From Escherichia phage HansTraber_Bas100, in the sequence record PQ850605.1: a stretch of 64,000 nucleotides of DNA. One strand, written 5' to 3'. The translations under genes were made by a program, and so were the position numbers. Below are positions 4,524-59,095 of this stretch, piece after piece; position 1 is the first letter of the stretch, and each line of letters starts with the position of its first letter. The notes under the pieces were generated by a model. That model was not told the DNA's origin. It saw nothing but the letters and a program-made list of their open reading frames with translations, and made no database searches.

Positions 4524-4537
4524 TAGGCAGGTGAATA

Positions 4538-5677: not shown

Positions 5678-5702
5678 TTGCTGTGATTACACAGTAAAAC
5701 AC

Positions 5703-5732
5703 ATGGGGCGTGGTCGAAAGGCTTCGCCCCAT
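5703..5732 (+). terminator. hairpin downstream of capsid gene (ATGGGGCG...CGCCCCAT)
   Basis: 8-bp GC-rich inverted repeat directly 3' of the capsid stop codon; no clean T-run. Confidence 0.4.
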
Positions 5733-5792
5733 ATCAATAGACCTCAAGGGCTGTAGGGGCTTATCTGAGGCTTATATAAATAGGACTACAAA

Positions 5793-6257: not shown

Positions 6258-6271
6258 ATAAGGTGAATGCC

Positions 6272-7110: not shown

Positions 7111-7111
7111 G

Positions 7112-7693: not shown

Positions 7694-7694
7694 T

Positions 7695-8180: not shown

Positions 8181-8192
8181 GAGGACACCGAC

Positions 8193-9731: not shown

Positions 9732-9778
9732 ATAATTGCCGCCGTAACTGGCGGCCATCTCTCTGAGAGGAATCTGTA

Positions 9779-10246
9779 ATGATTAACGTTTCCGGTTTTG
9801 GCGCTTCGATTCGTTTAGTGGCATCAAACACTTTTCCAAATGGTGTAACTCTTTCTGATTTCGCAGATGATGCTGATCCGATTGACGCGCCTGATCTTCA
9901 AATCTCTGAAGCGGCAATGGGATTGAACGGTGACTTGGTAGTCTGGAACCGTGCCAACCCTCTTGAAGTAGGCGTCAACATCATCCCTACTTCTGAAAGC
10001 GATGTAAACTTAGATGTTCTGGCAGCGGCTAACCGTGTAGGTAAGCGCAAGAACTCTGCGAAAGACGTGATCACCCTTATTCTGACCTACCCTTCTGGCA
10101 TGGTCATCACACTGAACAAGGGAACTTTGACGACTGGTTCAGTGATTCCTGGCATCCAGTCTCAGGGTCGTGTAAAAACACGTCAATATCGCTTTAAGTT
10201 TGAGAACGTAGTCAAAACTGGCGTGAGCAACCAAGAGATTTTATAA
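9779..10246 (+). CDS. tail tube protein
   Basis: 155-aa protein after sheath; N-terminus MINVSGFGASIRLVA; paralogous to 11197..11694. Confidence 0.5.
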   Translation: MINVSGFGASIRLVASNTFPNGVTLSDFADDADPIDAPDLQISEAAMGLNGDLVVWNRANPLEVGVNIIPTSESDVNLDVLAAANRVGKRKNSAKDVITLILTYPSGMVITLNKGTLTTGSVIPGIQSQGRVKTRQYRFKFENVVKTGVSNQEIL

Positions 10247-10575
10247 TGTATCAAATACCACTTGACAGCGTACCTAACCAGAATATCAGCTTTAACGTTG
10301 ACGGTGCTTATTGGCAGCTGCACATATTCGCCGCAATTGAGCACATGTGCGCAGATGTTTACCGCAATGGCGAATTGTTGATTCAGGGGGTACGTTGTTT
10401 TGGTGGTATACCAATGGTGCCTTATAAATATCTCATGATTGGGTACGGCAACTTTATTTTTGACAGCGTACCCGATTATGAGCATTTTAACTCTGGCGGC
10501 TGTAATTTATATTACATGTCAGAATCTGAGTTGGCTGAATTCCAGAAAACTGCTGAAGCGGAGTTTGCAATTTGA
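10246..10575 (+). CDS. hypothetical tail protein
   Basis: ORF track; start overlaps upstream stop. Confidence 0.4.
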   Translation: MYQIPLDSVPNQNISFNVDGAYWQLHIFAAIEHMCADVYRNGELLIQGVRCFGGIPMVPYKYLMIGYGNFIFDSVPDYEHFNSGGCNLYYMSESELAEFQKTAEAEFAI

Positions 10576-10928
10576 CAACTCTAACGATTGAAGTTAATGA
10601 TAACAATGACCTGTTTCTGCCTGATGGAAGAAATTTGAATATTCTGTCAGGAGAAAAGGCCATGGTACAAGTTATCAAGGCGGCGCATCAAATGCGACTT
10701 GGTGAAGACTTGTACGATATAGAAAACGGGGTCGATTATTTGGGGACCGTTTTCAAGTCGCCCGTTGACGAAGACGGTGCGCGAAAGTCGATTGCAGATG
10801 CTATTCTGAAGAAAGCAGACGTTGCCGGAATCGACTCATTGACTGTCACCATCCAAAACGGTATTCTTGGATTCACCGCTGAAGTGGTGACTATTTATGG
10901 CGAACGTATAAAGGTGAGTAATCAATAA
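10572..10928 (+). CDS. hypothetical tail protein
   Basis: ORF track (TTG start); translationally coupled. Confidence 0.35.
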   Translation: MTTLTIEVNDNNDLFLPDGRNLNILSGEKAMVQVIKAAHQMRLGEDLYDIENGVDYLGTVFKSPVDEDGARKSIADAILKKADVAGIDSLTVTIQNGILGFTAEVVTIYGERIKVSNQ

Positions 10929-11194
10929 TGGCACAAGTAATTCATTTTGCAAATGGCGTCATGAAATTTGGCGAAAAATTTGAAGACGCATCAGAGCTGT
11001 TTAATAAGAAGGTTGAGCCTGTTGCAGAAATCAAAGAGCAGGTCGAAGAAGAATCCGTTGAACAAAAACTAGATTTTGATTCCATGAGCGTTTCAGAATT
11101 GAAGTCTTATGCTAAAGAAAATGGCATTGACATCAAGGGTCTTTCTTATAAGGATGAAATTCTTGCTGCAGTTAAATCTGCATCTGCGGAGTAA
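10928..11194 (+). CDS. small acidic protein with C-terminal HeH/SAP-like motif
   Basis: 88 aa; C-terminal SVSELKSYAKENGIDIKGLSYKDEILAAV resembles a helix-extension-helix motif. Confidence 0.35.
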   Translation: MAQVIHFANGVMKFGEKFEDASELFNKKVEPVAEIKEQVEEESVEQKLDFDSMSVSELKSYAKENGIDIKGLSYKDEILAAVKSASAE

Positions 11195-11196
11195 AC

Positions 11197-11694
11197 ATGG
11201 TCAATATTAGTGGATTTGGCACAAGCATTAGAATTGTCGCTCTTCAATCTTTTCCTGTTGGGCTGAATATCAGTTCTTTGTCTGATGACCAGGATTCGCT
11301 AATTATTGAGGAAGTTGAATCAGTAGGTTATCAACTTACTTACGACGGCGGCATTTGCATATACGACAAAGCCGCCGTCGTTCGCGTATCCATTGCGGTC
11401 ATTCCAAACACTGAAGATGACATAAATCTTAAGCTTTTATTATCTGCCCGTAAAGGTGGATTCAAGTGGTTGCCAATTCAGGATGTGACATCGATGCTTA
11501 TTACATATCCTGACGGTGGAAGGGTAGTATTCTCGAACGGAACAATAATCAGCGGTCCGCTTGGTGACTCCATAGAGCAATCAGGCCGTCGCAAGACAAA
11601 CCGATACACATTTGTGTTTGCCAGCTACGGTGGCGCACAGAGCACGTCTCAAATTGCCAAGGGCGTGGTGCAGAGCATATTGGGGTCCATTTAA
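11197..11694 (+). CDS. tail tube-like protein (paralog of 9779..10246)
   Basis: N-terminus MVNISGFGTSIRIVA parallels MINVSGFGASIRLVA of the upstream tube gene; similar length. Confidence 0.45.
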   Translation: MVNISGFGTSIRIVALQSFPVGLNISSLSDDQDSLIIEEVESVGYQLTYDGGICIYDKAAVVRVSIAVIPNTEDDINLKLLLSARKGGFKWLPIQDVTSMLITYPDGGRVVFSNGTIISGPLGDSIEQSGRRKTNRYTFVFASYGGAQSTSQIAKGVVQSILGSI

Positions 11695-12227
11695 TGGCTA
11701 TCGATTTACTGTCATATAGTCTATCAAACAGAAGCTTCACGATAAAGAGCTTCAACCTTGGAGAAGTATCCACGCTTGGATGGGCCATAGTCAACGTCAA
11801 AATAAGACTCCAAGCGAAGATATTCAAAAACCAAAGGGAAGACGGCAGCTATATTGTCGATGGCAGAGTAAAGATGCCGCGAATACTCACTGTCACCGTG
11901 ATAGCTCAGACGAAAAGCGCATCAGATGCAATCGCTAAGATGTTGCAAAACAGGTCGACTATATACACAATTAATTCCCGTGGTCTAATATTCGAACGTA
12001 TGGTGCTGCAAAATAACAACTTCAGCCAGGACGCTGACAATATAACGTCTCAGCCCATACAATTGGTCTTCCATGAGATATTAACACAGCAGGATGTGTC
12101 TATTCAAACAGCGCAGGCAGGCGACTCAACAGTAATAGAGCGCGGCATTGCATACATAAAAGAAACTTCTGCCAGCGTCACTGGCGTCGCTACAAAGGTG
12201 ATGAATGGTATCAAGGGGATGTTCTGA
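11694..12227 (+). CDS. hypothetical tail protein
   Basis: ORF track; tail module. Confidence 0.4.
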   Translation: MAIDLLSYSLSNRSFTIKSFNLGEVSTLGWAIVNVKIRLQAKIFKNQREDGSYIVDGRVKMPRILTVTVIAQTKSASDAIAKMLQNRSTIYTINSRGLIFERMVLQNNNFSQDADNITSQPIQLVFHEILTQQDVSIQTAQAGDSTVIERGIAYIKETSASVTGVATKVMNGIKGMF

Positions 12228-12787
12228 TGGACTTCGTTTCGATTCTGCTTTCTGGTCAATCTTTGACCATAACGAATGAGTCAACAGGTCTTCCTGTCTG
12301 GACAAGGCTTTCACCTGTTTCTGCAGAAATAACATCCCCAGCAGAAACAACTCAATTCCCTCTTGCTGGTACAGCCATGCAGGTTGTCGAAGTATCAAGC
12401 ACGTCATCAGTAAGCAATTTACAGGCGGCAAAGGTTGTAATGCCAGCCCATATGGCGTTAAACGTAATTTGCAATGACCAGTCTACAATTGAAAATATCA
12501 TAAATTCATTTGATGATGACGAAGTCACATTTTCAATAACTTCTCGAAGCATCATTGCCAGTAAAATGTCGATGTCCGACGTTGAAATAACCCAGTCAGA
12601 AGAAAACTTGAATGGAGTATCAATAGTAATAACTTTCGAGCAAACGTCATTTAGCATTCAAGGAAGCTTCGACCCTAAACAATCTGCAGACGAATCATCA
12701 AATGGTGTTGCTATTAAAGAACCAGTCAGTTTGACTACAACTGTGAGTTCGTTATATAATAAAATAAAATCAACAGTAGGAATATAG
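12227..12787 (+). CDS. hypothetical tail protein
   Basis: ORF track; tail module. Confidence 0.4.
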   Translation: MDFVSILLSGQSLTITNESTGLPVWTRLSPVSAEITSPAETTQFPLAGTAMQVVEVSSTSSVSNLQAAKVVMPAHMALNVICNDQSTIENIINSFDDDEVTFSITSRSIIASKMSMSDVEITQSEENLNGVSIVITFEQTSFSIQGSFDPKQSADESSNGVAIKEPVSLTTTVSSLYNKIKSTVGI

Positions 12788-12788
12788 A

Positions 12789-13205
12789 ATGAAGATCACC
12801 AACAAACAAACTGGTCGTACAGTAGAAATTAAAATCAGCAAAATGACTGCGATGGAAGGCTGGAATATTCAGCGTCGCTTTGTCGAATTTGCAATGTCGA
12901 AAGACCCTGCGTTCCGTTCAGAGTATACGATGGAAGTGTTGAGCTTCGCAAAAGTCGAGCTTGATGTGGGCCAAGAAATCCCATTAAGTACTGGTGCACT
13001 AATTGACAACCATCTTGGTGACTGGGAAAACCTTAAAGAAGTCTTCGAAGCAGTCCTCATGGAGAACGGTATAAACCCAGATACTCACGCCGAGCGTGAA
13101 GGCTACTGGGAACAAGCTGGCGGCGAAATGGCTGCAGCATTCATCGGCGAATCGATGCGATTAATCGCTCCATTCCTCAGCGGCGAGACTCCAAACAAGG
13201 GGTAA
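12789..13205 (+). CDS. putative tail assembly chaperone
   Basis: 138-aa acidic protein immediately upstream of the tape measure gene. Confidence 0.35.
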   Translation: MKITNKQTGRTVEIKISKMTAMEGWNIQRRFVEFAMSKDPAFRSEYTMEVLSFAKVELDVGQEIPLSTGALIDNHLGDWENLKEVFEAVLMENGINPDTHAEREGYWEQAGGEMAAAFIGESMRLIAPFLSGETPNKG

Positions 13206-13208
13206 ACT

Positions 13209-15389
13209 GTGTCTGACTCATTAGAAAAATTTGTGCTTCAATATACGGTGGACTTGAAAGAGTCCATCAATCGTCTTGAGCAATTGCAAGATAAGGTTGA
13301 TCAGACAAACAAAAAGGCAAAATCCGCTGGCAAAGATTTCTCTGGAGCATTCAAAGATGTTTTTGGCGAGCTAAAGCCGCTTACTGGTGAGCTAGGGTCA
13401 ATTGACGGAATACTTGCGCGGCTGACATATCGTTTTGCCGCGCTCGTCCCTGTTGTCGCAGGATTGGCAGTCGTCGTCAAATCCATCGTTGATGTTCGAA
13501 AAGAATACGAAGCGCAAAGAAAGCTTGGTTTTGAAGCCGGACTCTCTCCAATGGGTGTCGAACAACTACAACGACAGTTGAATGAAAGTTCAGGTGGCAT
13601 CCTTGGCGCACAGGGGTCGCGCGATTTAATCAGCAAAGCTTCTAATTTGGCATTCAATGCATACACCAACCCTGATGTGATGAACAAGGACAACTTGTTG
13701 CTGAACAAGATGGGGACAAGTCCTTTCAACAGTAACGGCGGCATCAAAGACACGAATCAGCTGCTTGATGAAATTGGAACAAAGCTGAGAAGTGTTAATG
13801 AGCAAACCGCTCGTGCCATTGGTGCTCTGGCAGGATTCACGGCTGATGAAGTCCGCGCCCTTCGTGAGCGCAACCAGTCTGTGAAAGAAAGCACGCGCAT
13901 AAGTGACGAAGAAACCGCGAAGCTGCAAAGACAGCAAGCTGCTCTTGAGACTATACGAAATAGTATGGGGCAAATTCAAGAAGATTGGCGGCGTATTGAA
14001 CTGGTCATCGGTGAAAACGTTATGCCTGCATTCTCGACGCTTGTCAGCAAAACCGCCGATACAGTCGAAGGATTCCAGATGATGTTCCAAAGAATGTCCG
14101 ATGGGTGGTCTGAATTCGTCGACAATTTCATTGCTGACTTGAAACATCCGTTCGACAAGCAGGCCGCTGTCAACGAGCGTCACGAGCGTGCCGTTGATAG
14201 ATGGATCACGCAGATGGCAGACGGCGATGTGAAACGCCAGAGGAACCAGGAGCAAAACGCTGCTGAACAACGCTCTGCACAAGCACTTTTCACTCGTGAT
14301 ATAAATCTTTTTTCAAGCGCCGTGTCAACTTTTGCTGGCGTGATTGATGAGCGTCAAGCTTGGGCGGCATGGGCAGGTGAAATTGGGCGCAGCGCAGGGC
14401 AATCCGCGATGCCTGGAACGCCTGCATTGAATACTGGCGCGACCATAGGGAGTAATCTTGGGTCAGGAAACCCGACAGCGTATGACTCAATATATGAGGA
14501 AGCTTCAAAACGCTATGGCATACCTGTGGCGATGATGAAGGCCGTGACTGAAGTTGAATCTGGATTCAATCCAAATGCTGTGAGCGGAGCAGGCGCGACT
14601 GGTTTGATGCAAATAATGCCTTCTAACTTCAAGGGTCTTGGAATAACCGATGGCAATGATCCTCGACAAAACATTATGGGCGGCGCTCAACTGTTGAAAG
14701 AGTATTTAAACGCTGCCAACGGCGATTGGAATCTTGCGCTGACGATGTATCACGGTGGCTACGACCGCAGCGGCTGGGGCAAGAATACACGCGCTTATCC
14801 TGGAAAGGTCATGGCCGCTCTCGACCGACAATCCAATGGTGAGTATGCCACGGCAGCGCCGCAAGGTGCACCAGTTACTCCAGTACTTAGCGGTAGCGGA
14901 GCGGAAGCACCAAAGGGCAGCTATGCACCAGTACAAGGCCAATCGCGCCAAACAGTGCAATACAGGCAATTGCAAGAAGCCATTGCAGGATACCTGAACG
15001 TACCAGTTGAGCAGTTGATGCAGGGACAAGTCAACAAAGGTGATATTGACTTTGCTCAAACTTACCTTAAGCTTGGCACGCAAAGGGATTATATTAAAAA
15101 CATGCAACTGGCTTCAACTCCAGGTGTAAGACCGAACATTCAAGCCGAAGCTATGAAAAACGCTCGTCTTGCTGCATTCCAACTTGAAGCATTCCAGAAA
15201 TACGGTGGCGACCTTTCCGCGAATAGTCGACCTGGTGGGCGTGATATTACTATGGGTCAGAAAAACGTTGTCATCAACGTCAACGGCGCTCAAGACCCAC
15301 GCAGCACGGCATTCGAAACGAAACGAGTGCTTGAACAAGATGATATCAACGACATAAACAACCTTACTGCTACACCTTTGAAGTGGTGA
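13209..15389 (+). CDS. tail tape measure protein with lytic transglycosylase (SLT) domain
   Basis: 726 aa; helical N-terminal half with a hydrophobic segment; SLT catalytic signature KAVTEVESGFNPNAVSGAGATGLMQIMPSNF. Confidence 0.7.
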   Translation: MSDSLEKFVLQYTVDLKESINRLEQLQDKVDQTNKKAKSAGKDFSGAFKDVFGELKPLTGELGSIDGILARLTYRFAALVPVVAGLAVVVKSIVDVRKEYEAQRKLGFEAGLSPMGVEQLQRQLNESSGGILGAQGSRDLISKASNLAFNAYTNPDVMNKDNLLLNKMGTSPFNSNGGIKDTNQLLDEIGTKLRSVNEQTARAIGALAGFTADEVRALRERNQSVKESTRISDEETAKLQRQQAALETIRNSMGQIQEDWRRIELVIGENVMPAFSTLVSKTADTVEGFQMMFQRMSDGWSEFVDNFIADLKHPFDKQAAVNERHERAVDRWITQMADGDVKRQRNQEQNAAEQRSAQALFTRDINLFSSAVSTFAGVIDERQAWAAWAGEIGRSAGQSAMPGTPALNTGATIGSNLGSGNPTAYDSIYEEASKRYGIPVAMMKAVTEVESGFNPNAVSGAGATGLMQIMPSNFKGLGITDGNDPRQNIMGGAQLLKEYLNAANGDWNLALTMYHGGYDRSGWGKNTRAYPGKVMAALDRQSNGEYATAAPQGAPVTPVLSGSGAEAPKGSYAPVQGQSRQTVQYRQLQEAIAGYLNVPVEQLMQGQVNKGDIDFAQTYLKLGTQRDYIKNMQLASTPGVRPNIQAEAMKNARLAAFQLEAFQKYGGDLSANSRPGGRDITMGQKNVVINVNGAQDPRSTAFETKRVLEQDDINDINNLTATPLKW

Positions 15390-15393
15390 TAAT

Positions 15394-16266
15394 TTGAAAA
15401 AGAGAATCCTTAAAGTCACCTTATCTATGCCGGATGGCACAAGCCAAGTGCTTGATGAAGGATTGATGCTTAGATGCCGAATCAAAAAGGCAGCACTTTC
15501 CGTGCAAAATAAGGCCACAATCGAAGTCGCAGGATTAACAGGGTACTTGAGAGAGTACCTGCTTTCCAACTTCACCGCATTCAACAAACGTCTGCGTGAT
15601 CAAGGCCAATTGGCGGCGAATTATGTCAACGTAACAATTGAAGCTGGATATAGAGAAGGCAACGTTGTTAGTAGCAACTTAGTCTACAAGGGGCAAGTCA
15701 CAACGGTCGAGATAACAGCGCCGCCGCCGAACATCGTCATACGCATCACTTGCTACACCAACCAGATAAACAGGACTAAGTTCATCACTCAAGCTGCGCC
15801 GTCAAACCCAACATTCAAAGAGTTTGTGGAGTGGTCGGCAAAGCAAATGGATATTGATACTGTTATATGCGATACTTCGATTAACAATCAGCGCCTTGTT
15901 AACCCAGGCCGCACAACATATGTTGCAGCCGCCTTGCTGCTTGAGATTCAGAACTATCAAAGGAACTCTATTGCGGCATATATCGATGATGATACGCTCA
16001 TCGTCAAGGATAAAGACAAAATTCTGAATCCAGAACAAATAACGGTGATTGAGGAATTTGTCGGAATACCGATGTGGAACGAGTGGGGCGCTGACTTCAC
16101 TTGCATGTATAACGCGGATTTGAAGCTTGCCCAAGGTGTGAAATTCAAATCAGTCTTAAACCCAAGCTTGAACGACACCACATTCGTCATCATGCAACTT
16201 GAATATGATTTAGCAAGTCGTGATGACATATTTACGGTGACGGGCGACGTTGCACCATCGGCCTAA
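15394..16266 (+). CDS. tail/baseplate protein
   Basis: 290-aa ORF (TTG start) directly after the tape measure gene. Confidence 0.4.
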   Translation: MKKRILKVTLSMPDGTSQVLDEGLMLRCRIKKAALSVQNKATIEVAGLTGYLREYLLSNFTAFNKRLRDQGQLAANYVNVTIEAGYREGNVVSSNLVYKGQVTTVEITAPPPNIVIRITCYTNQINRTKFITQAAPSNPTFKEFVEWSAKQMDIDTVICDTSINNQRLVNPGRTTYVAAALLLEIQNYQRNSIAAYIDDDTLIVKDKDKILNPEQITVIEEFVGIPMWNEWGADFTCMYNADLKLAQGVKFKSVLNPSLNDTTFVIMQLEYDLASRDDIFTVTGDVAPSA

Positions 16267-24296: not shown

Positions 24297-24835
24297 CGCA
24301 CATCCTGTGTCTTAACATTACCTGAAGCATCTCTTAATGGCAGTGGATAGTAGGCCATTTGGTAGTCTGATACGCCTTCAACATGATAAAACACGATTAC
24401 GTCTTTGCTGTTGATGAGCATGTTAACGACATCTGATTTATCTTCTGGAGTGAGTATGAGTGCGCCGCCTGTCCTGCTGTCTACTGCAACAGGGTATGTC
24501 TTATCGACAAGGCCGCTGTCCAATGTATTATACCTGACAACGATTTCAGGGGCATCAACTTTTGCAATTGACATTCCGAACACAAACGACACGACTTGGC
24601 GACCGCGATCATTCATTACGCACATCTTTTCCTTGTCAAACCTTTCCTTTATCACATCGTATTTATTCCAGCAAAATTCGAACGATTGGCCGTTGTTAAA
24701 ATATCTCGTTAACACTTTGGCATTACTATTTGGCGGCGTAAACATACTTTCAGCCGCTGCACTTTTGGTGAAGAACAAAACTGTCAGCATAGCCATGATG
24801 ATGATCAAAACAATCTTTAAGTTTTTCGATTTCAT
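24293..24835 (-). CDS. secreted protein with N-terminal signal peptide
   Basis: N-terminus MKSKNLKIVLIIIMAMLTVLFFTKSAAAE is a signal-peptide-like segment. Confidence 0.4.
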   Translation of the reverse strand: MKSKNLKIVLIIIMAMLTVLFFTKSAAAESMFTPPNSNAKVLTRYFNNGQSFEFCWNKYDVIKERFDKEKMCVMNDRGRQVVSFVFGMSIAKVDAPEIVVRYNTLDSGLVDKTYPVAVDSRTGGALILTPEDKSDVVNMLINSKDVIVFYHVEGVSDYQMAYYPLPLRDASGNVKTQDVR

Positions 24836-24910
24836 TATAATTCACCTTTTGATTACGAATATTAATAGTATAGGCCGAAGGTTTTGAAAGTAAATAAGGC
24901 GAAAGGTAAA

Positions 24911-24940
24911 TAAAAGAAAAGCCGGAGATTTCCGGCTTTA
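24911..24940. terminator. bidirectional rho-independent terminator (GCCGGAGATTTCCGGC)
   Basis: Perfect 6-bp stem with A-run upstream and TTTA downstream; downstream of ligase gene on the - strand. Confidence 0.55.
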
Positions 24941-25011
24941 TGTATACACTGTATATTAAATTCTATAAAACGACGCGATAGATTATCCGCACCAATTACT
25001 TATCTAGTGTC

Positions 25012-25989
25012 TTAAAAATACTCCATATCGGTAATATCACGGAAGCATTTATACAAAGCAGAGCGCGGCACGTCGACGATGCCAAAGTTAAAGAATTTAT
25101 ACGTTAGGTATTTATCGCGATAGTTCTCGCGATTCTCCCAAAGCATTTTACGCTCTGCCATAGGCATTGAACCAGCGGAGACGCGGAAAGGAATCATTTC
25201 ACCTTTCTCATCCACATATTTTGGATTGACGACTACGAATGAGCCAAGGTATCCTTTCGCAACTAAACCTTCAGCCTCTTTTGAACGCTTGGTGCGACCC
25301 AATTCGTCAATGAATGCTTCGTTGTTGTTCTCCATCATCTCAACGAAGTCTATGATCAACCCTTCTTCATCGGTCCACGGCTTGTCCTTCCACACATCAC
25401 GTGACTTCGGCGTCGCGCGGCCATGCTTATATTTGCCCGTCCAAGACTTGCCATACAAGCCTTCATAGCCAAGCTGGTCTGCTTCGATTTGCATTGCCGC
25501 GTACTGGTCCATATTTTCGATGTTGCGATATTCGAGAGCGCGAAGGAATGGACGTCGGCCATGGTCAATGAGATGTTGATTGACCTCAGCAACACGTCGA
25601 TTGTACTTCTCATAACGGGCCGAGAATGGCAAATCAGGTTCGCTAAAGTCATCAAACACCCACCATGTAAAGTTAGTGATTGCATCAGTGTTCATGCATG
25701 CAGTATAGGCCTGTTGCATGACGTTCTTGTCATTTGGATTGCCGTCGATTAGCTCTCCATCAAGTCCGTGAATTAATTCACCCAAGAAGAGGAACTCTTT
25801 TTTGATTTGAATGTTGCGCAGCGCCATGCCGGACGTGCCCATTGGCAAGTTGTCATACGCCATTGCGCGTATGCCATCGACCTTGAATGACAATCCGCAA
25901 GGCAGCGGCACGTCTTCGCCGCGCTCGATTATTTGCTTACGCTGGCAACCCTTCATTGGTTTTAATGCTTTGATTTCTCCTGCCATCAC
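25012..25989 (-). CDS. ATP-dependent DNA ligase
   Basis: Adenylation motif FKVDGIRA (K-x-DG) near the N-terminus, followed by DGELIDG, EGLYGK and KDK motifs. Confidence 0.6.
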   Translation of the reverse strand: MMAGEIKALKPMKGCQRKQIIERGEDVPLPCGLSFKVDGIRAMAYDNLPMGTSGMALRNIQIKKEFLFLGELIHGLDGELIDGNPNDKNVMQQAYTACMNTDAITNFTWWVFDDFSEPDLPFSARYEKYNRRVAEVNQHLIDHGRRPFLRALEYRNIENMDQYAAMQIEADQLGYEGLYGKSWTGKYKHGRATPKSRDVWKDKPWTDEEGLIIDFVEMMENNNEAFIDELGRTKRSKEAEGLVAKGYLGSFVVVNPKYVDEKGEMIPFRVSAGSMPMAERKMLWENRENYRDKYLTYKFFNFGIVDVPRSALYKCFRDITDMEYF

Positions 25990-53535: not shown

Positions 53536-54068
53536 TGGGTAACGATGCAGGATGGGGCAAGCCGCGATACTCAAAACTTGCCCACTACTTTGACGACGGC
53601 GAGCAAATCAGCTTGTGCGGTAAATTCAGCAAAGGCAATACAGAGTTGACCGATGCTCAAGAAATGGAATCAAGTTTGACAATTGGTGATTGCTCTAAGT
53701 GCAGAAAGGCATTATATGAGTTATTAACTCTAAGGGGATTGAAAGCGGCAAAATCAAGGGATGAATGGGTCATTAACGTCTGTGAAGGGAATCCAGAATT
53801 AATGGATGAATTGCTGAAAACAGATGCCGTAAATGCAATTTTCAAAAGGCATTATAAAACTTGTATGCGTTACAAGATGAATGATGATATTATTTTTATG
53901 GTATTATCTTATTCAAGGAGCACAATGGACGTCAAAAAGCTTCGACAATATCGCCACAAGGTCATGTGTGAATTGCGCCGTTTAGGAGTTATTGTGGATA
54001 ATAATGTCATTAAAACGGAATTGAAGAAGCGTGATAAAAGGAATGGTGACTGGAAGGTCAGCGGATAA
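53532..54068 (+). CDS. hypothetical early protein
   Basis: ORF track. Confidence 0.4.
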   Translation: MMGNDAGWGKPRYSKLAHYFDDGEQISLCGKFSKGNTELTDAQEMESSLTIGDCSKCRKALYELLTLRGLKAAKSRDEWVINVCEGNPELMDELLKTDAVNAIFKRHYKTCMRYKMNDDIIFMVLSYSRSTMDVKKLRQYRHKVMCELRRLGVIVDNNVIKTELKKRDKRNGDWKVSG

Positions 54069-54330
54069 ATAAACACTGTTTACGTGTTTTGAAGAATGGA
54101 ATGTGTGCAATTGGTCGCTTTATGCGGCCTTTTGTCGTTTGGGTCGTGTTTTGCGATGGAATGATTATGAGGTTGTGTTTTATTTATTGATTGTGCGGAA
54201 ATATTTAGAAATATATATAAACAGGATTGTTAATATTTTAATAGTGTATGGCTATTGGTCCGTGGTGTTTGTTAGATTATATCTATGGATTGAAATTTTA
54301 GTGTCGTGAAACGTGGTTTTGAACACATTT

Positions 54331-54700
54331 GATACGCCTAAAATACGGTTAAAAATTAAGCGTATCATGGCTGCAGGCCGCGCCGTTGCTGGATTCCTAT
54401 TTTCAAAAGTGGTACACCCTTACGTCATGATACGTCATGGTTTTCTATCCGTAAGAGTGTACAGCCCTTGCCGCGCCTGGCTTGTACATTAATCTTACGG
54501 ATGATACGGATAAAACTGAGCATCGTTATATATAGAATTCGAAAAATTAATTAACTCCATTTTAAAAACATTTATATTAATTTTTTTCATATCCTCATAC
54601 TTATGTTAATTTATATATTTAACGTATCATCCGTAAGATATAAGTAAAAACAAAGACTTGCGGCAATACGGATGATACGTCATGATACGCTTCAACCAGC
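54331..54700. repeat. second iteron-like ATCCGTATC/GATACGGAT repeat region with similar AT-rich core
   Basis: Same architecture as 2108..2373; core TATATAGAATTCGAAAAATTAATTAAC closely resembles the first region. Confidence 0.6.
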
Positions 54701-54917
54701 CAGCAGCGGCTAAGTCATTGATTTGCATAACAAGCGGCGAAAGGGATGGATTTCTTTTATACGTATCAAACAGTACACCACGCACCACGGTCCGCTATTC
54801 ATTCAGCACTATGATTTATGTACTTTTACAGCCAATCTGAACATCAATCTGCACTTGAATATAATGTTCATTCATTGTATAATTCACACTATTAATTTGC
54901 ACTATGGGATTTGCACT

Positions 54918-55391
54918 ATGAGTCAAGATTATGTAGCAATGCCTGAAGACTTTGAAGACCCGCGATTTGCAGAGCATAATCAGGCATTATTCGATGAGTT
55001 CATTGACCTTGTTATTCAGGGCCATGACATGCGCGCAGCTTTTGCACTAGTATTTGGCATGGAGGTTGCGACCGATAACTACACTGGCCAGCGAATCCTC
55101 TGCACGCAACGCAATCCGTACTACAAGATGCGCTACAAAAAGCGTATGGAAGAGATGCCATTGAAGGAATTGTGGAGCGTAAAGAGTTCCATCCACAATT
55201 TAGTGAAGCTTGTGCGTGATCCAGAAGTCGCGGCGTCAGCCAAGCTTAATGCCATTCGTGAACTGAATATCATCTACGGCATCACGATGATTGATGAAAA
55301 TGGCAATAGTAAAATGGGCCGTTCCATGGACGATTTCTACAAGGATTTTGGAGAGGCAGCCAAAGAGGGTGAGCAATTCTCCCGCCACTAG
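54918..55391 (+). CDS. hypothetical protein (158 aa); start codon embedded in the ATTTGCACTATG motif
   Basis: Internal ATG at 54918 preceded by two motif copies; phage-like base composition; function unknown. Confidence 0.4.
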   Translation: MSQDYVAMPEDFEDPRFAEHNQALFDEFIDLVIQGHDMRAAFALVFGMEVATDNYTGQRILCTQRNPYYKMRYKKRMEEMPLKELWSVKSSIHNLVKLVRDPEVAASAKLNAIRELNIIYGITMIDENGNSKMGRSMDDFYKDFGEAAKEGEQFSRH

Positions 55392-55408
55392 CCAATTTGC
55401 ACTATAAA

Positions 55409-55446
55409 ATGGCCCTAGAACACATTTTCTCCACTTCTAGGGCCAT
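55409..55446. other. perfect 12-bp-stem hairpin (ATGGCCCTAGAA / TTCTAGGGCCAT, 14-nt loop)
   Basis: Perfect inverted repeat 3 nt after the motif copy at 55394-55405 and 18 nt after the stop of 54918..55391; no T-run. Confidence 0.5.
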
Positions 55447-55505
55447 CGGTAATACGACGGGGAAGGTTACAACCATAAACGCGTTAGAAAGTGTATTATT
55501 ATAAG

Positions 55506-55769
55506 TCATCTTTTAGTCACTTTACGTAACAATTTACGACCTTCCGCCGTCCAGTCGAACGACTCCACCAGCAGATTTGCACTATAACCTAAGACGATGC
55601 GTCCCTTCTCGTTATCGACCCGCCAACAAGTCTCGAATAGCATTCGATTTGCACTATTAACTATCGCCGCGACGCGCGTTGGGTAAGCGCAATTTGCACT
55701 ATGGTCATAAAGGGATAAGGTGCGACCGCTTCCGATGGACAACGTAGCGATAAGAATAAGCGTATTCAT
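55506..55769 (-). CDS. doubtful ORF reading through the motif array (motif encodes S-A-N three times)
   Basis: ORF track; hydrophobic N-terminus MNTLILIATLSIGSG; weak RBS; may be an artefact of the in-phase DNA repeats. Confidence 0.2.
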   Translation of the reverse strand: MNTLILIATLSIGSGRTLSLYDHSANCAYPTRVAAIVNSANRMLFETCWRVDNEKGRIVLGYSANLLVESFDWTAEGRKLLRKVTKR

Positions 55770-55819
55770 AAGCCACCAATTTGCACTATGAAAAGCGACC
55801 CCGAAGGGCCGCCATTCGA

Positions 55820-56446
55820 TTAGATAATCTGGAATGTGTAGGACTTGTTGCCGAACTCGAAGTTCAAGCGTCCAGCTTCCTTAAGCTTCATGCGGAAGCG
55901 AATGTGCTTGCTATCCGGTAATCCCAGCGCGGCGAACGCTACGCGGACCGATTTGAACTCGCCTACACCCTCGACCATGACACCGTTACGGGTGAGACGC
56001 TTTTGCGCCACTTCCTTATTATCCCAGCTTTTTGCAATACCTTCGCTATTCGAACGGCGATGGGAAGGAGTTCCATTTTGCACTACGCAATTTGCACTAT
56101 CGTTTAAACCGCTCTTAACGAAGGCTTCATACTCTTCGTCGGTCATCGCGTCGAGTTCTTCCTGGGTCGGCTCGGCCTTTTTAACGACCGCACGCGCCTT
56201 ATGCGTTTTTACATCGCTGGGCACTTCCTCGCGCGACTTCGCGTCTGGGATGGGCGACTCGTTGGACGGCTCATCGAGCGCGTTTAAGGACTCGATTAAC
56301 GCTATTACGCGAGTCTCGGCGGTCCGGCGGTCCGCAAATTTTTTGATCGGCTTCGAACCGGAATTTGCATTGTAAAATGCAACGAGGTCGGCGGTCTTAG
56401 TTGCGATAACGTCGCCGCTAGTCGAGAAACGATTTAAGCTAACCAT
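55820..56446 (-). CDS. hypothetical two-domain protein (208 aa) of the foreign cassette
   Basis: ATG with AGGAG RBS; structured N- and C-terminal regions separated by an acidic low-complexity linker; contains motif copies at 56075-56100; CpG-rich codon usage. Confidence 0.5.
   Translation of the reverse strand: MVSLNRFSTSGDVIATKTADLVAFYNANSGSKPIKKFADRRTAETRVIALIESLNALDEPSNESPIPDAKSREEVPSDVKTHKARAVVKKAEPTQEELDAMTDEEYEAFVKSGLNDSANCVVQNGTPSHRRSNSEGIAKSWDNKEVAQKRLTRNGVMVEGVGEFKSVRVAFAALGLPDSKHIRFRMKLKEAGRLNFEFGNKSYTFQII
56075..56100 (+). repeat. two adjacent motif copies (ATTTTGCACTAC, AATTTGCACTAT) inside the 208-aa gene
   Basis: Read directly; on the coding strand they translate as D-S-A-N-C-V-V-Q-N. 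Confidence 0.6.
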
Positions 56447-56526
56447 AATGAACTCCTATTTGTTAGGGCGCTAGGCGCGAAAGAATTTTATTAAAGCGCC
56501 GCGCACGACGCTCTAAAAATCCTCTC

Positions 56527-56811
56527 TTACGCTTCGACGAGGGAGAAGGTCTCAAATTCTTCTTCGCCCATAACGAGTAAGATGTTACCGATTTCGACCG
56601 CTTCGAAGAAGTATCCGTTAACGTTTACTTCGAAGGCTTCGCGGTCCGATTCCGGTAACGCCGCGTAAAGTTTAAAAGCCTCGGCGACCGTTACCCCACC
56701 CGCCTCGATAGTTTGGTCTACGTTCGCGGCGTAGACTTCGGATAAAATTTGTTTTACGCCGTAGTTCTCGACGATAGCGTTACGAATAGAAGAAACGTTA
56801 AGAATAGCCAT
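56527..56811 (-). CDS. small acidic protein, paralog family member 1 (94 aa)
   Basis: AGGAG RBS; shares SEVYAANVDQTIE and VNVNGYFFEAVEIG blocks with 57445..57735; net charge about -12. Confidence 0.5.
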   Translation of the reverse strand: MAILNVSSIRNAIVENYGVKQILSEVYAANVDQTIEAGGVTVAEAFKLYAALPESDREAFEVNVNGYFFEAVEIGNILLVMGEEEFETFSLVEA

Positions 56812-56834
56812 TTTAAACTCCTAGTTGGGAGAGG

Positions 56835-56860
56835 CGTTAACGACCTATTCGTTAACTCAT
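56835..56860 (-). promoter_or_regulatory. 5' leader element: mini-uORF (ATG-AGT-TAA) overlapping a hairpin GTTAACG-AATAGGT-CGTTAAC
   Basis: Conserved with the leader of 57445..57735; stem differs but stays complementary, loop AATAGGT identical. Confidence 0.45.
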
Positions 56861-56879
56861 CCCGTCCCGATATGAGTAC

Positions 56880-56907
56880 ATTATAATATAGTGTAGAAAA
56901 AAGTAAA
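56880..56907 (-). promoter_or_regulatory. cassette promoter P1 (TTTACT-17-TATAAT on the - strand)
   Basis: - strand reads GTGCTTTACTTTTTTCTACACTATATTATAATG, near-identical to P3. Confidence 0.45.
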
Positions 56908-56917
56908 GCACTTTTTC

Positions 56918-56944
56918 GATAAAAATGAGATAAATTATTTTATC
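56918..56944. promoter_or_regulatory. palindromic operator-like element between divergent promoters (GATAAAAA-11-TTTTTATC)
   Basis: 8-bp inverted repeat centred between the -35 elements of P1 and P2. Confidence 0.35.
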
Positions 56945-56951
56945 TTTTTTC

Positions 56952-56979
56952 TTTACTTCTTCGTACACTCGCGTATACT
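56952..56979 (+). promoter_or_regulatory. cassette promoter P2 (TTTACT-16-TATACT)
   Basis: CTTTACTTCTTCGTACACTCGCGTATACT shares the TTTACTTCTTCGTACACT block with P3. Confidence 0.4.
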
Positions 56980-57035
56980 TGTTTATATCGAGACGGGCGA
57001 TGGCCCTTCCTTCTACTAGCATCGGGAGTTTTATT

Positions 57036-57338
57036 ATGACTACTTTAATCTCTTCTATCCTTACTTACGACGAAGACCGTTTAACCGTTCGTTCTCTTAT
57101 CGCCGCCGTTAACGCGGAACTAGAATCCACCATCATTAAGGTCCGCGCGGTCGCTTTCGTCGGGCTTTCCTTCGACGATATGAAATACGCCGAACGTAGC
57201 GCCATCCGCTTCGCGAAGACCGACGACGAAGCCGTTACCCTTATCGAGACGGTTACGCCTCACGGCGAAGCGTTAATTATCGTCGAGTATATCGACGTAG
57301 AAGGCGATAAAGCTTATAAACATTTTATCGCAAAATAA
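57036..57338 (+). CDS. small acidic protein, possible divergent paralog family member 2 (100 aa)
   Basis: ATG with GGGAG RBS 7 nt upstream; an in-frame upstream ATG at 57000 is also possible; N-terminus MTTL resembles the other two. Confidence 0.45.
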   Translation: MTTLISSILTYDEDRLTVRSLIAAVNAELESTIIKVRAVAFVGLSFDDMKYAERSAIRFAKTDDEAVTLIETVTPHGEALIIVEYIDVEGDKAYKHFIAK

Positions 57339-57348
57339 CGAAAAGTGC

Positions 57349-57377
57349 TTTACTTCTTCGTACACTAAGACTATAAT
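57349..57377 (+). promoter_or_regulatory. cassette promoter P3 (TTTACT-17-TATAAT)
   Basis: GTGCTTTACTTCTTCGTACACTAAGACTATAATG upstream of 57445..57735. Confidence 0.45.
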
Positions 57378-57395
57378 GTTTTATATCGAGAGGGG

Positions 57396-57419
57396 ATGAG
57401 GTAGCGAATAGGTCGCTAC
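57396..57419 (+). promoter_or_regulatory. 5' leader element: mini-uORF (ATG-AGG-TAG) overlapping a hairpin GTAGCG-AATAGGT-CGCTAC
   Basis: Counterpart of the 56835..56860 element with compensatory stem changes. Confidence 0.45.
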
Positions 57420-57444
57420 CCGCCCGACCAACTAGGAGATTATT

Positions 57445-57735
57445 ATGATTACTTTAGCCGCTATCCGTTCCGCTCGCGTCGAGACTTCCGAAAACTCTAA
57501 CGTATTTGGCGAGACTTTAGAGAGCGTTTATCTCTCTAACGTCGACGCGACTATCGAGTCTATTTATGAGCCGATCAACTTCCTCGACCTTTACAAGTAT
57601 CGCGACGAGGACATCGTATCGTCCCGCGTAACGATCAACGGCTTCGTTTATACGATTACCGAAATCGGCGGCGAATATATCGCGGTCCCGCAACTCGGCG
57701 GCGAAGTAACTTATTTTAAAATCGTCTCCTTATAA
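57445..57735 (+). CDS. small acidic protein, paralog family member 3 (96 aa)
   Basis: AGGAG RBS; ESVYLSNVDATIES and VTINGFVYTITEIGG blocks shared with 56527..56811. Confidence 0.5.
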   Translation: MITLAAIRSARVETSENSNVFGETLESVYLSNVDATIESIYEPINFLDLYKYRDEDIVSSRVTINGFVYTITEIGGEYIAVPQLGGEVTYFKIVSL

Positions 57736-57755
57736 TACCCTTCCGTTACTAATAG

Positions 57756-57780
57756 GCCGCGCTTAGTCGCGGCTTTTCTT
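57756..57780 (+). terminator. rho-independent terminator (GCCGCG-CTTAGT-CGCGGC + TTTTCTT)
   Basis: Perfect 6-bp GC stem followed by a T-run 20 nt after the stop of 57445..57735. Confidence 0.6.
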
Positions 57781-57900
57781 CGTCCCTATCTCGTTGCGCT
57801 CCTACGCGAAAACTCCTTTATCCTTCCCTTCGTCGTCGCATAATCTTCGTCGGTATGCGCCTTAGTTCGCATAACAGGTATTACGTTAAATGGAGAACAT

Positions 57901-57973
57901 CGCGTAAGTCCTTGTTTTATATAGACACCTATATCGGACCGTTAGGGCGGGTCGCGTAAGTCGTTGTTTTATA
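57901..57973 (+). repeat. 21-bp direct repeat CGCGTAAGTC(C/G)TTGTTTTATA, two copies 52 bp apart
   Basis: Copies at 57901-57921 and 57953-57973 inside the 0.6-kb non-coding stretch; palindrome ATATAG-ACAC-CTATAT between them. Confidence 0.55.
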
Positions 57974-58202
57974 AAGGCGCAAAACTTTCCCTTCGTTCCG
58001 AACTAAAACGAGAAATATGCGGACCCTTCGCTCGAAAATAGTACGCATGCGAAATTACCGACATCTAGAATAATCCCCATCGATATTATCCTACGCGCAA
58101 CCATTCGCTTTCGAATTGTAACGCTGGAAACTGTAACGGCGATTGATTATTGCGTTCGTGTGGTTTTTAGGGCATGGGTCTTTTGGTGCGTTTTGCTACT
58201 TG

Positions 58203-58318
58203 ATGGAATTTGCAGTACACTAATCAAAATACGACACATTTGGTCCACTAACTTTTCAAAGAAAAAGTCCTAGACAGTACCGTACTATTTTGTATCCACA
58301 GGAAATTTGCAGTACACT
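58203..58318 (+). repeat. two copies of 17-bp GGAA(A)TTTGCAGTACACT, a variant of the left-end motif
   Basis: Copies at 58203-58219 and 58301-58318; palindrome CAGTACCGTACT between them at 58274-58286. Confidence 0.55.
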
Positions 58319-58390
58319 CCTGCGCGCGGCAGGCAAAATAAAGGGCCGCACTAAGCGACCCACGATTCACGGTTAAATCAACAACACCCA

Positions 58391-58771
58391 CTATTCACTC
58401 TTATGGGCATCACCAAATCCATCAGCAATCTGGCTGATCAACGACTCAATGGACACAGTTTTACCAATTGATCGAGCGGTTATGGCGAGCATATTATCAA
58501 TCAAACCGTGATTAACACAATACTCTGGAGATTTAGAATCATCTTCAGAACAACCAAAAAGCTGGTCGCGCAGACTTTCAAGAGAACGCTCAATATTTTC
58601 CAACTTCTCTTCTAAATCGGATTGGCGACGTAAAACCCATGTCAAGTCACGGTTGCCAACTTCCAATCCATCAGAATAGCAAGGTGGAGCGTCAATTTTG
58701 ATGCTGGAACCAAAAGCAGTGCCGCTGCCTTTAGTATAAGTATGGCTCATAGAATCATTTTTATTTGACAT
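58391..58771 (-). CDS. hypothetical protein
   Basis: Internal ATG at 58771 with AGGTAA RBS; phage-like composition resumes here. Confidence 0.4.
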   Translation of the reverse strand: MSNKNDSMSHTYTKGSGTAFGSSIKIDAPPCYSDGLEVGNRDLTWVLRRQSDLEEKLENIERSLESLRDQLFGCSEDDSKSPEYCVNHGLIDNMLAITARSIGKTVSIESLISQIADGFGDAHKSE

Positions 58772-58846
58772 ATCATTACCTTTAATATTTGGGTGATTAA
58801 CAATAACTATAATAAAGCCGCATAGCGCGGCATTCAAATCGATTTA

Positions 58847-59095
58847 TTAATTGTGACGATTGGATTCATCAATCGATACCAATTGTGCAGGGTCGCCGGA
58901 CACCGTTGCGTCGATGATTCCCATTTGAGAGAAAAATTCTGAATAAACTTCTTTCCAGTACTTGCGCGCAGCTTTCTGGGCCTGCCCTTTGCGCTTGTAA
59001 CTTTTTCCTTGAAAGATGAAGCGGTCGTTTGCTGCGTTATACTCCACCACACCTTCCAGCCATTGTAAGAATGCTGCTGATTCATTTTGATTCAT
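58847..59095 (-). CDS. hypothetical protein
   Basis: ORF track. Confidence 0.4.
   Translation of the reverse strand: MNQNESAAFLQWLEGVVEYNAANDRFIFQGKSYKRKGQAQKAARKYWKEVYSEFFSQMGIIDATVSGDPAQLVSIDESNRHN

What the first reader, a model, noticed from the sequence alone, without database searches (positions are those of the whole stretch)
57781..58390. 0.6-kb non-coding tail of the cassette with direct and inverted repeats
No ORF of 60 aa or more on either strand despite CpG-rich composition. It holds a 21-bp direct repeat (57901-57921, 57953-57973) flanking the palindrome ATATAG-ACAC-CTATAT, two 17-bp copies of GGAA(A)TTTGCAGTACACT (58203, 58301), and the palindrome CAGTACCGTACT. This is a candidate structured non-coding RNA, origin-like region or recombination site marking the right boundary.
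Basis: seen in the sequence. Interest (0 to 1): 0.55.

Follow-up and report, generated by a model that had tools for sequence, protein, structure and literature searches.

The report
Phage terminal-repeat end and its signals
This 0.6-kb gene-free stretch is where the 3.6-kb direct terminal repeat of an E. coli Wifcevirus phage ends, so it contains the physical end of the packaged genome and conserved DNA signals that most likely direct the cut, and it is not an RNA gene.

Summary
The window is a Wifcevirus (E. coli myovirus) genome assembled with one copy of its direct terminal repeat (DTR). The "cassette" is that DTR, window 54560-58183. The finding is the last 403 bp of the DTR plus the first 207 bp of unique DNA.

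- **Terminus:** four of five independent records place the right end at ...GGGCATGGGTCTTT|TGGTGCG (58183|58184).
- **Non-coding but constrained:** diversity is 0.040, against 0.10-0.23 at neighbouring third-codon positions. Convergent terminators bracket the stretch.
- **No RNA signal:** no Rfam hit, no covariation, no excess folding stability.
- **Repeats:** both direct-repeat pairs exceed chance; the two palindromes do not.
- **Cross-genus match:** Serratia phage MyoSmar (TerS 35% identical, termini mapped separately) has the same composite in register: GGGCA[A/T]GGG, the cut, TGGTGCG at +1, GTACACTAA at +32.

Best reading: this is the cis site for making the terS-distal genome end.

Unexpectedly, the "CpG-rich" composition is a 2.6-fold CA/TG depletion. 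It is anchored at this terminus, independent of gene content, and recurs in three other lineages. Its cause is unknown.

The parts
54560..58183 (.). Direct terminal repeat (DTR), present once in this assembly. In virions it is duplicated at both genome ends.
   Evidence: Mansfield's PhageTerm DTR is 1-3673. The WFH, SP13 and Ro157lw records carry both copies and end at the same base; WFC ends about 80 bp later. Korf et al. report a ~3.7-kb terminal repeat (PMC6563267).
57754..57783 (+). Intrinsic-terminator-like hairpin plus T-run that closes the rightward DTR genes.
   Evidence: Annotated as a terminator in Mansfield, WFC and WFH. 88% identical in the distant relative L029.
57784..58183 (.). 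Non-coding part of the tail inside the DTR. It is CA/TG-depleted and under purifying selection.
   Evidence: Diversity 0.044 with 335/400 columns invariant, against 0.10-0.23 at codon position 3 of flanking genes. No small ORF shows a codon-position signature.
57900..57924 (+). Direct repeat, copy 1 (TCGCGTAAGTCCTTGTTTTATATAG).
   Evidence: The TAAGT core pair is kept in L029 with 51-bp spacing.
57952..57976 (+). Direct repeat, copy 2 (23/25 identical), 52 bp from copy 1, about 5 helical turns.
57919..57934 (.). Palindrome ATATAG-ACAC-CTATAT. Probably incidental.
   Evidence: Not above chance. Not conserved in L029.
58099..58116 (+). Single remaining copy of AA(C/T)CATTCGCTTTCGAAT. All 18 relatives have two copies flanking an extra 45 bp, so this genome carries a repeat-mediated 45-bp deletion.
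58106..58183 (.). Terminus-proximal conserved core inside the DTR, including GGGCATGGG at 58170-58178.
   Evidence: Diversity 0.028. 80-96% identity to L029, the highest in the tail. GGGCA[A/T]GGG lies just inside the terminus in MyoSmar too and occurs only once in the window.
58183..58184 (.). Right (terS-distal) DTR terminus, the last base of packaged DNA at the right genome end.
58184..58190 (+). TGGTGCG heptamer immediately outside the terminus.
   Evidence: Identical at +1..+7 in Wifceviruses and in MyoSmar.
58205..58221 (+). 17-bp repeat, copy 1. Its GTACACT(AA) core starts at +32 from the terminus.
   Evidence: The same offset (+32) is found in window, WFH, Mansfield, Ro157lw, L029 (GTACAC) and MyoSmar (GTACACTAA).
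58250..58286 (.). A/T hairpin AACTTTTCAAAGAAAAAGT plus CAGTACCGTACT. In L029 this island sits within a clear minus-strand terminator.
   Evidence: 92% identity to L029 at 58261-58285. L029 sequence read. The WFC record's DTR end falls here.
58301..58318 (+). 17/18-bp repeat, copy 2 (GTACACT at +129). Genus-specific in position.
   Evidence: Absent from L029. MyoSmar's second box is at +64.
58333..58361 (-). Intrinsic-terminator-like hairpin plus T-run that ends the leftward late operon (148-aa ORF at 58391-58837).
   Evidence: Annotated in WFC and WFH.
55500..58165 (.). CA/TG-depleted, CG- and TA-enriched block anchored at the right terminus. This is the context of the finding's 'CpG-rich' composition.
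   Evidence: Replicated in L029, L030 and MyoSmar.

Best explanation
The stretch is the inner (terS-distal) end of the phage's 3.6-kb direct terminal repeat together with the junction to unique DNA. It most likely works as the cis-acting site where the packaging machinery makes the right genome end.

What the sequence and comparisons show:
- The terminus is at 58183|58184.
- The flanking DNA is non-coding, selectively constrained, and bracketed by convergent terminators. These would keep early DTR transcription and late leftward transcription from running across the site.
- A composite signal, GGGCA[A/T]GGG, the cut, TGGTGCG (+1), GTACACTAA (+32), is kept in register in a different genus.

What is inferred:
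- The composite is bound by terminase (TerL nuclease guided by the DTR-encoded TerS or a partner protein).
- The cut or nick is made there when a head is nearly full. The repeat is then duplicated by staggered nicking at the two DTR boundaries and strand-displacement synthesis, as established for T7/T3-type DTR phages (my own knowledge, not tested here).
- The upstream 25-nt repeat pair and the second GTACACT box are accessory protein-binding sites.
For: Location:
- Four of five independent records end the DTR at the same base inside this region, and all five agree on the left end.
- Literature confirms a ~3.7-kb terminal repeat (PMC6563267).
- The DTR encodes a bona fide small terminase: the profile hits PDB 7UXE, E217 TerS, at E=1.3e-45.

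Constraint:
- Diversity is 0.040 against 0.10-0.23 at codon position 3 of neighbours, while adjacent genes vary or are replaced.

Footprinting:
- Against a relative with 70% TerS identity (L029), identity peaks at 80-96% in the 75 bp abutting the terminus.
- MyoSmar (TerS 35% identical, PhageTerm-mapped DTR) has TGGTGCG at +1..+7 and GTACACTAA at +32..+40, the same offsets, plus GGGCAAGGG just inside. The naive chance of these at fixed offsets is 6e-5 and 4e-6.
- All five GTACACT copies in the 64-kb window are DTR-associated.
- The core sequence occurs only in Wifcevirus-like contigs in two public collections.
Against: - No biochemical or read-level data were available here. Cleavage by terminase at this site is inferred.
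- The WFC record ends its repeat about 80 bp further right.
- The terS-proximal terminus does not share the composite, so one recognition rule for both ends is not shown.
- GTACACT also sits in the spacers of two early promoters (56963, 57360), so the box could belong to a transcription regulator.
- The second box and the minus-strand terminator are not conserved in L029.
- The homologous E217 TerS showed no appreciable DNA binding in vitro (PMC9611059).
Confidence: 0.6

Rival explanations
1. A T5-like injection-stop or first-step-transfer boundary. Only the terminal repeat enters the cell first, and this repeat-rich untranslated block at the inner end of the repeat holds DNA entry until early DTR proteins have acted.
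For: - The organisation matches T5 Repeat Region 3: untranslated, repeat-rich, at the inner end of the left repeat, overrunning into unique DNA, and better conserved than the repeat's ORFs (10.1101/866236; T5 annotation).
- A terminus-anchored compositional block suggests special treatment of this DNA.
- Wifceviruses resist nearly all tested RM and defence systems without a known protection mechanism (10.1101/2024.09.12.612763).
Against: - No DnaA boxes or relaxed variants, which are the hallmark of T5's iss.
- No sequence similarity to T5; a distant search finds only Wifceviruses.
- T5's repeat lacks the strong CA/TG depletion (0.94 against 1.02).
- No two-step entry has been reported for these myoviruses, and which end enters first is unknown.
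Confidence: 0.15
2. A purely transcriptional intergenic region. Convergent terminators sit alongside operator sites (GTACACT boxes and the 25-nt repeats) for a phage regulator that also controls the DTR early promoters. On this reading the coincidence with the DTR end is secondary.
For: - Terminator-like hairpins lie on both sides.
- GTACACT occurs in the spacers of two of the three early-promoter copies.
- All DTR intergenic regions are similarly conserved, with diversity 0.018-0.053.
Against: - There are no genes for such operators to control between the terminators, and no sigma-70-like promoter on the plus strand there.
- The box keeps a fixed distance from the mapped terminus across genera, whereas MyoSmar's early promoter lacks it.
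Confidence: 0.15
3. A replication origin or replication-priming site at the repeat boundary.
For: - Direct repeats are spaced about 5 helical turns apart.
- The non-coding DNA is conserved.
Against: - No DnaA boxes, and only two-copy repeats rather than iteron arrays.
- GC is 0.43-0.46 with no AT-rich unwinding element.
- The cumulative skew turning point follows gene orientation.
Confidence: 0.05
4. A structured non-coding RNA gene.
For: The region lies between two terminators and is conserved.
Against: - No Rfam hit at E<=1.
- 0/163 compensatory pairs, with a positive covariation term.
- It folds no better than shuffles on either strand.
- No convincing promoter.
- The low diversity limits the power of the covariation test.
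Confidence: 0.03

Closest known systems
Serratia phage MyoSmar (Myosmarvirus) terS-distal DTR terminus
   Same: - The terS gene lies inside a ~3.6-kb PhageTerm-defined DTR.
- About 0.5 kb of non-coding DNA straddles the terS-distal terminus.
- The composite is identical in register: GGGCA[A/T]GGG, cut, TGGTGCG (+1), GTACACTAA (+32), plus a second GTACACT.
- It has the same CA/TG-depleted block abutting that terminus.
   Different: - Its second box is at +64, not +129.
- Its terminal non-coding DNA holds an inward-reading early promoter and a C/A-rich tract.
- The 25-nt repeats are absent.
- DTR genes near the end point inward, not toward the terminus.
- A GTACACT box also lies 25 bp inside its terS-proximal end.
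Phage T5 left-terminal-repeat 'Repeat Region 3' / injection stop signal (iss)
   Same: An untranslated block rich in direct repeats and palindromes, at the inner end of a long terminal repeat, overrunning into unique DNA and more conserved than the repeat's ORFs (10.1101/866236).
   Different: - T5's block is 1.2 kb or more and is defined by paired DnaA boxes in long inverted repeats, which are absent here.
- There is no sequence similarity.
- T5 shows only mild CpG enrichment and no CA/TG depletion.
- Two-step transfer is unproven for Wifcevirus.
T7/T3 concatemer-junction packaging signals and lambda cos (cosQ-cosN-cosB)
   Same: From my own knowledge, not tested here: site-specific terminase cuts that define unique genome ends, with recognition elements on both sides of the cut, and with the terminal repeat (T7/T3) regenerated at packaging.
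   Different: - T7's repeat is 160 bp, and lambda has cohesive ends without a repeat.
- No sequence resemblance was tested.
- The binding protein here is unknown, and the related E217 TerS has no demonstrated DNA target (PMC9611059).

Membership tests
Boundary of a packaging-generated long direct terminal repeat (DTR phage genome terminus) | The sequence lies exactly where the duplicated terminal sequence stops in virion-derived records. | tested here: met
   The WFH, SP13 and Ro157lw duplicated ends and Mansfield's PhageTerm call all map to window 58183|58184. WFC maps ~80 bp later.
Boundary of a packaging-generated long direct terminal repeat (DTR phage genome terminus) | The terminus is fixed, not permuted, and conserved among isolates. 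| tested here: met
   The same base is used in 4 of 5 records. The terminus-flanking sequence is invariant or nearly so in 19 genomes and is kept in register in MyoSmar.
Boundary of a packaging-generated long direct terminal repeat (DTR phage genome terminus) | The phage encodes a terminase. | tested here: met
   The TerS profile hits PDB 7UXE (E217 small terminase) at E=1.3e-45. TerL was not examined.
Boundary of a packaging-generated long direct terminal repeat (DTR phage genome terminus) | Terminase binds and cleaves at this site. | not testable with these tools
   This needs biochemistry or genetics.
T5-type injection stop signal (Repeat Region 3) | An untranslated, repeat-rich block at the inner end of the left terminal repeat, overrunning into unique DNA. 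| tested here: met
   403 bp lie inside and about 150 bp outside the DTR, with direct repeats above chance.
T5-type injection stop signal (Repeat Region 3) | Paired DnaA boxes within long inverted repeats. | tested here: not met
   No TTWTNCACA or TTWTNNACA in 57781-58390.
T5-type injection stop signal (Repeat Region 3) | Sequence homology to the T5-like iss region. | tested here: not met
   A distant blastn of 57736-58390 against 50,697 phage records finds only Wifceviruses.
T5-type injection stop signal (Repeat Region 3) | DNA entry pauses at this site (two-step transfer). | not testable with these tools
   This needs infection time-course experiments.
Structured non-coding RNA | A match to a curated RNA family. 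| tested here: not met
   0 Rfam matches at E<=1 over 53800-59000.
Structured non-coding RNA | Compensatory base-pair changes, or stability above shuffles. | tested here: not met
   0/163 compensatory pairs; z = +0.88 and +1.18. Power is limited by the low diversity.
Replication origin (DnaA-box or iteron type) | DnaA boxes, an iteron array of 3 or more copies, and an AT-rich unwinding element. | tested here: not met
   No DnaA boxes, only two-copy repeats, and GC of 0.43-0.46.

The most novel reading that the evidence does not exclude
The terS-distal 2-2.7 kb of the terminal repeat, starting at this terminus, may be a functionally special 'leading' DNA segment kept almost free of CA/TG dinucleotide steps. 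Selection could be against a host or phage activity that acts on duplex CA/TG, or for a DNA-physical property needed during ejection or entry. On this reading the non-coding tail is its entry or hand-off end. It would be a previously undescribed, sequence-composition-based strategy for the first DNA into the cell. It could underlie the unexplained restriction and defence insensitivity of these phages.
Probability: 0.2. Interest if true: 0.85.

Novelty: new variant of a known kind. Interest (0 to 1): 0.58.

Why it matters
Wifceviruses are candidate therapeutic and biocontrol phages. They are reported to have very short latent periods and unexplained resistance to restriction and defence systems. 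Their packaging signals are unknown, and so is the DNA target of their TerS family, which has a solved structure (7UXE).

The finding contributes two things:
- **A testable terminus signal.** GGGCAWGGG | TGGTGCG - N24 - GTACACTAA is a concrete signal conserved across genera. It can be used for correct genome-end annotation, synthetic rebooting, and packaging or transduction assays.
- **An unexplained compositional feature.** The terminus-anchored CA/TG-free block is reproducible across genera and independent of gene content. If it reflects selection on first-entering DNA, it opens a direct experimental route, synonymous recoding, into how these phages survive the first minutes of infection.

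Tried and rejected
- **Rfam scan** at E<=1: nothing. No tRNA or tmRNA.
- **Alignment folding and single-sequence folding** on both strands: no covariation and no excess stability.
- **Small-ORF hypothesis.** ORFs of 23-47 aa are 'conserved' only because the DNA is. None shows third-position enrichment of substitutions, and annotators disagree on them.
- **Host-factor sites** (DnaA, IHF, Fis, CRP, Chi, GATC) in the tail: none.
- **Sigma-70 promoter scan:** no plus-strand site inside the tail and one weak minus-strand site. Attempts to read the repeats as promoters failed on spacing.
- **Pfam and PHROGs on the flanking genes:** no functions.
- **IMG/VR relatives via neighbouring proteins:** only the same genus.
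- **17-mer terminus-core search** in metagenome and viral collections: 81 loci, but only 10 were true Wifcevirus-like carriers and the rest were chance (one script timed out).
- **Restriction-site avoidance** as the cause of the bias: rejected as a general explanation. TCGA, CGCG and CTAG are enriched, and all CA/TG-containing trinucleotides are depleted symmetrically.
- **Pbunavirus Pa193 and T5:** neither shows the CA/TG depletion.
- **Synthetic-genome paper** (PMC11074155): nothing on the termini.
- **AlphaFold job for TerS**: not collected, because the PDB sequence hit made it unnecessary.

Full report
**Identity of the window.** Megablast and blastn of the region against 50,697 phage records hit only 28 records. 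All are Wifcevirus myoviruses of E. coli or Shigella (WFC, WFH, ECML-117, FEC19, Mansfield, Bas98-101 and others), at 92-96% identity. Several records start at window ~54560. The Mansfield record annotates 1-3673 as a 'direct terminal repeat predicted by PhageTerm'. Korf et al. report a ~3.7-kb terminal repeat for WFC and WFH (PMC6563267).

**Where the repeat ends.** Four records (WFC, WFH, SP13, Ro157lw) carry the repeat at both ends, so I compared their two ends directly.
- All four, plus Mansfield, agree on the left end: ...TTAACTCC|ATTTT, window 54559|54560.
- WFH, SP13, Ro157lw and Mansfield agree on the right end: ...GGCATGGGTCTTT|TGGTGCG, window 58183|58184.
- WFC's record stops ~80 bp later.

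The finding is the last 403 bp of the DTR plus the first 207 bp of unique DNA.

**The observation.** All listed elements are present; one start coordinate is 2 nt off.
- No ORF of 60 aa or more exists in the stretch.
- In 300 dinucleotide-preserving shuffles, none reaches the 15-nt exact repeat or the 23/25 repeat.
- Hairpins like the two palindromes are common in the shuffles (118/300 and 249/300).
- 'CpG-rich' applies only up to ~58165.

**Coding or RNA?** Neither is supported.
- Small ORFs (23-47 aa) persist in relatives only because the DNA barely changes. None shows third-position enrichment of substitutions.
- Rfam gives nothing at E<=1.
- RNAalifold on 18 genomes finds 0 of 163 pairs with compensatory change and a positive covariation term.
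- Both strands fold slightly worse than shuffles.
- The covariation test has limited power, because the region is so conserved.

**Constraint.** Across 15 genomes, nucleotide diversity in 57784-58334 is 0.040, with 469 of 551 columns invariant. Codon position 3 of the flanking genes runs at 0.10-0.23. The gene just to the left exists as divergent alleles (65% protein identity in WFC), and one clade has an extra ORF inserted there. The non-coding DNA is thus more constrained than its coding neighbours. This genome alone lacks a 45-bp segment bounded by an 18-bp direct repeat.

**Transcriptional setting.** Terminator-like hairpins with T-runs face each other at 57754-57783 (+) and 58361-58333 (-). 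Other groups annotated them independently. No convincing sigma-70 promoter lies between them.

**Phylogenetic footprinting.** A TerS search gave two more distant relatives, L029 (70% TerS identity) and L030 (50%). Both keep the layout: terS, then leftward genes, then two rightward genes, then a 0.5-0.65-kb gap, then leftward late genes. Against L029, the tail resolves into conserved islands:
- the plus-strand terminator (88%);
- 57861-57910 (84%);
- 58111-58185 (80-96%, the peak, abutting the terminus);
- 58261-58285 (92%).

The ATATAG palindrome, the second 17-bp copy and the minus-strand terminator are not conserved there. The left terminus is also an island of conservation within diverged DNA.

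**Cross-genus test.** Serratia phage MyoSmar has a TerS 35% identical, and its DTR (1-3559) was mapped by PhageTerm. Its junction, oriented like the window, compares as follows:
- MyoSmar: ...TGGGCAAGGGC | TGGTGCG-N24-GTACACTAA...GTACACT
- Window: ...AGGGCATGGGTCTTT | TGGTGCG-N24-GTACACTAA...GTACACT

The heptamer at +1 and the 9-mer at +32 are identical and at identical offsets. L029 keeps GTACAC at +32. In the 64-kb window, GTACACT occurs only five times, all DTR-associated: +32 and +129 from the right terminus, ~100 bp outside the left terminus (inverted), and in two early-promoter spacers. This is the main reason I favour a terminus-generation (packaging) function. TerS identity is solid, with PDB 7UXE at E=1.3e-45. 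However, the E217 homologue has no demonstrated DNA target (PMC9611059).

**Comparison with T5.** T5's Repeat Region 3 / iss is organisationally the closest described element (10.1101/866236; annotation). Its hallmark DnaA boxes are absent here, and there is no sequence similarity. I keep a T5-like entry-pause role as a rival rather than filing this region as a member of that family.

**Composition.** The 'CpG-rich' signal is really a depletion of CA/TG.
- Counts are 151 against 391 expected, compensated by CG (584 against 310) and TA (426 against 258).
- TG/CA o/e in 500-bp windows averages 0.42 inside the block and 1.19 +/- 0.11 outside.
- It holds in genes (CpG mostly at codon 3-1 junctions) and in non-coding DNA. 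It is strand-symmetric and affects all eight CA/TG-containing trinucleotide classes.
- It is strongest from 250 to 1750 bp inside the right terminus, relaxes by ~2750 bp, and jumps to 1.27 immediately outside.
- Divergent alleles and lineage-specific inserted ORFs share it.
- L029, L030 (more weakly) and MyoSmar share it at the same terS-distal position. Pbunavirus Pa193 and T5 do not.

It is not general restriction-site avoidance, because TCGA, CGCG and CTAG are enriched. I found no description of such a bias. Its cause is unexplained.

If packaging starts at the terS end and the last DNA packaged is ejected first (a general rule for tailed phages, from my own knowledge), this block would be the leading DNA. 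That is an inference only. MyoSmar's inward-reading early promoter next to that terminus is consistent with it.

**Verdict.** The finding is real. It is best explained as the terS-distal DTR terminus with its flanking cis signals and insulating terminators. The feature class is known, and the DTR itself is annotated in public records. The signal composition, its conservation across genera, and the terminus-anchored CA/TG-free block appear undescribed.

Noticed in passing
window 55500-58165: A CA/TG-depleted block (TG/CA o/e about 0.2-0.6, CpG about 2.0, TpA about 1.2). It is anchored at the right DTR terminus, strand-symmetric, and present in coding and non-coding DNA. Divergent alleles and inserted ORFs share it, and it recurs in L029, L030 and Serratia phage MyoSmar but not in Pbunavirus Pa193 or T5. 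Cause unknown.
   Followed up: partly
window 54895-56099 (copies at 54895, 54909, 55041, 55395, 55575, 55647, 55692, 55779, 56077, 56090): An oriented array of (A)TTTGCACTA(T): 10 copies on the plus strand and none on the minus strand anywhere in the 64 kb. It surrounds the terS gene regardless of local gene strand. Position is conserved in 15 Wifceviruses, and the array is present (5 copies each, same strand) in L029 and L030. It is a candidate TerS/pac recognition array.
   Followed up: partly
window 54421-54689: The left (terS-proximal) DTR terminus (54559|54560) sits inside its own repeat cluster. This comprises TACGGATGATACG and TACGTCATGATACG direct repeats and a 27-nt inverted repeat (54482-54508 / 54623-54649) straddling the end. 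The terminus motif GAAAAAT[T/A]AATTAACTCC|ATTTT is conserved in L029.
   Followed up: partly
window 56889-56915 (-), 56951-56997 (+), 57348-57395 (+): Three copies of an early-promoter module (AAAAGTGCTTTACTT...GTACACTA-TATAAT/TATACT followed by GTTT(T)ATATCGAGA-GGG) drive divergent and tandem DTR genes. Two of them carry the GTACACT box in the spacer.
   Followed up: no
window 55565-55572; L030 323-1824; L112 (MyoSmar) 2107-2454; L113 (Pa193) 340-386: E. coli Chi (GCTGGTGG) copies cluster next to terS. All are oriented to be read by RecBCD entering from the terS-proximal genome end: 6 in L030, 4 in MyoSmar, 2 in Pa193, and one in the window directly abutting an array motif.
   Followed up: partly
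window 58098-58116: This genome lacks a 45-bp segment present in all 18 compared relatives. The deletion lies between two copies of AATCATTCGCTTTCGAAT, so that part of the tail is dispensable.
   Followed up: yes
window ~58355-58365 (Mansfield L001 ~3850-3890): Just after the minus-strand terminator there is a variable heptamer tandem repeat (CGACCCA). It is expanded about 6-fold in Mansfield and differs in Bas99 and SP13.
   Followed up: no
window 24601-25300: A second, much weaker dip in TG/CA o/e (0.71-0.87), the lowest outside the DTR block.
   Followed up: no
L233 (T5 AY587007.1) 1-10139 vs 10140-16000: T5's left terminal repeat has mildly higher CpG o/e (1.31) than the adjacent unique DNA (0.77), but no CA/TG depletion.
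   Followed up: no
L002/L003 (WFC MK373777.1): The WFC record's terminal repeat (3784 bp) ends about 80 bp beyond the terminus shared by four other records, inside the AACTTTTCAAAGAAAAAGT hairpin. This could be a different end-calling method or a real alternative cut.
   Followed up: no
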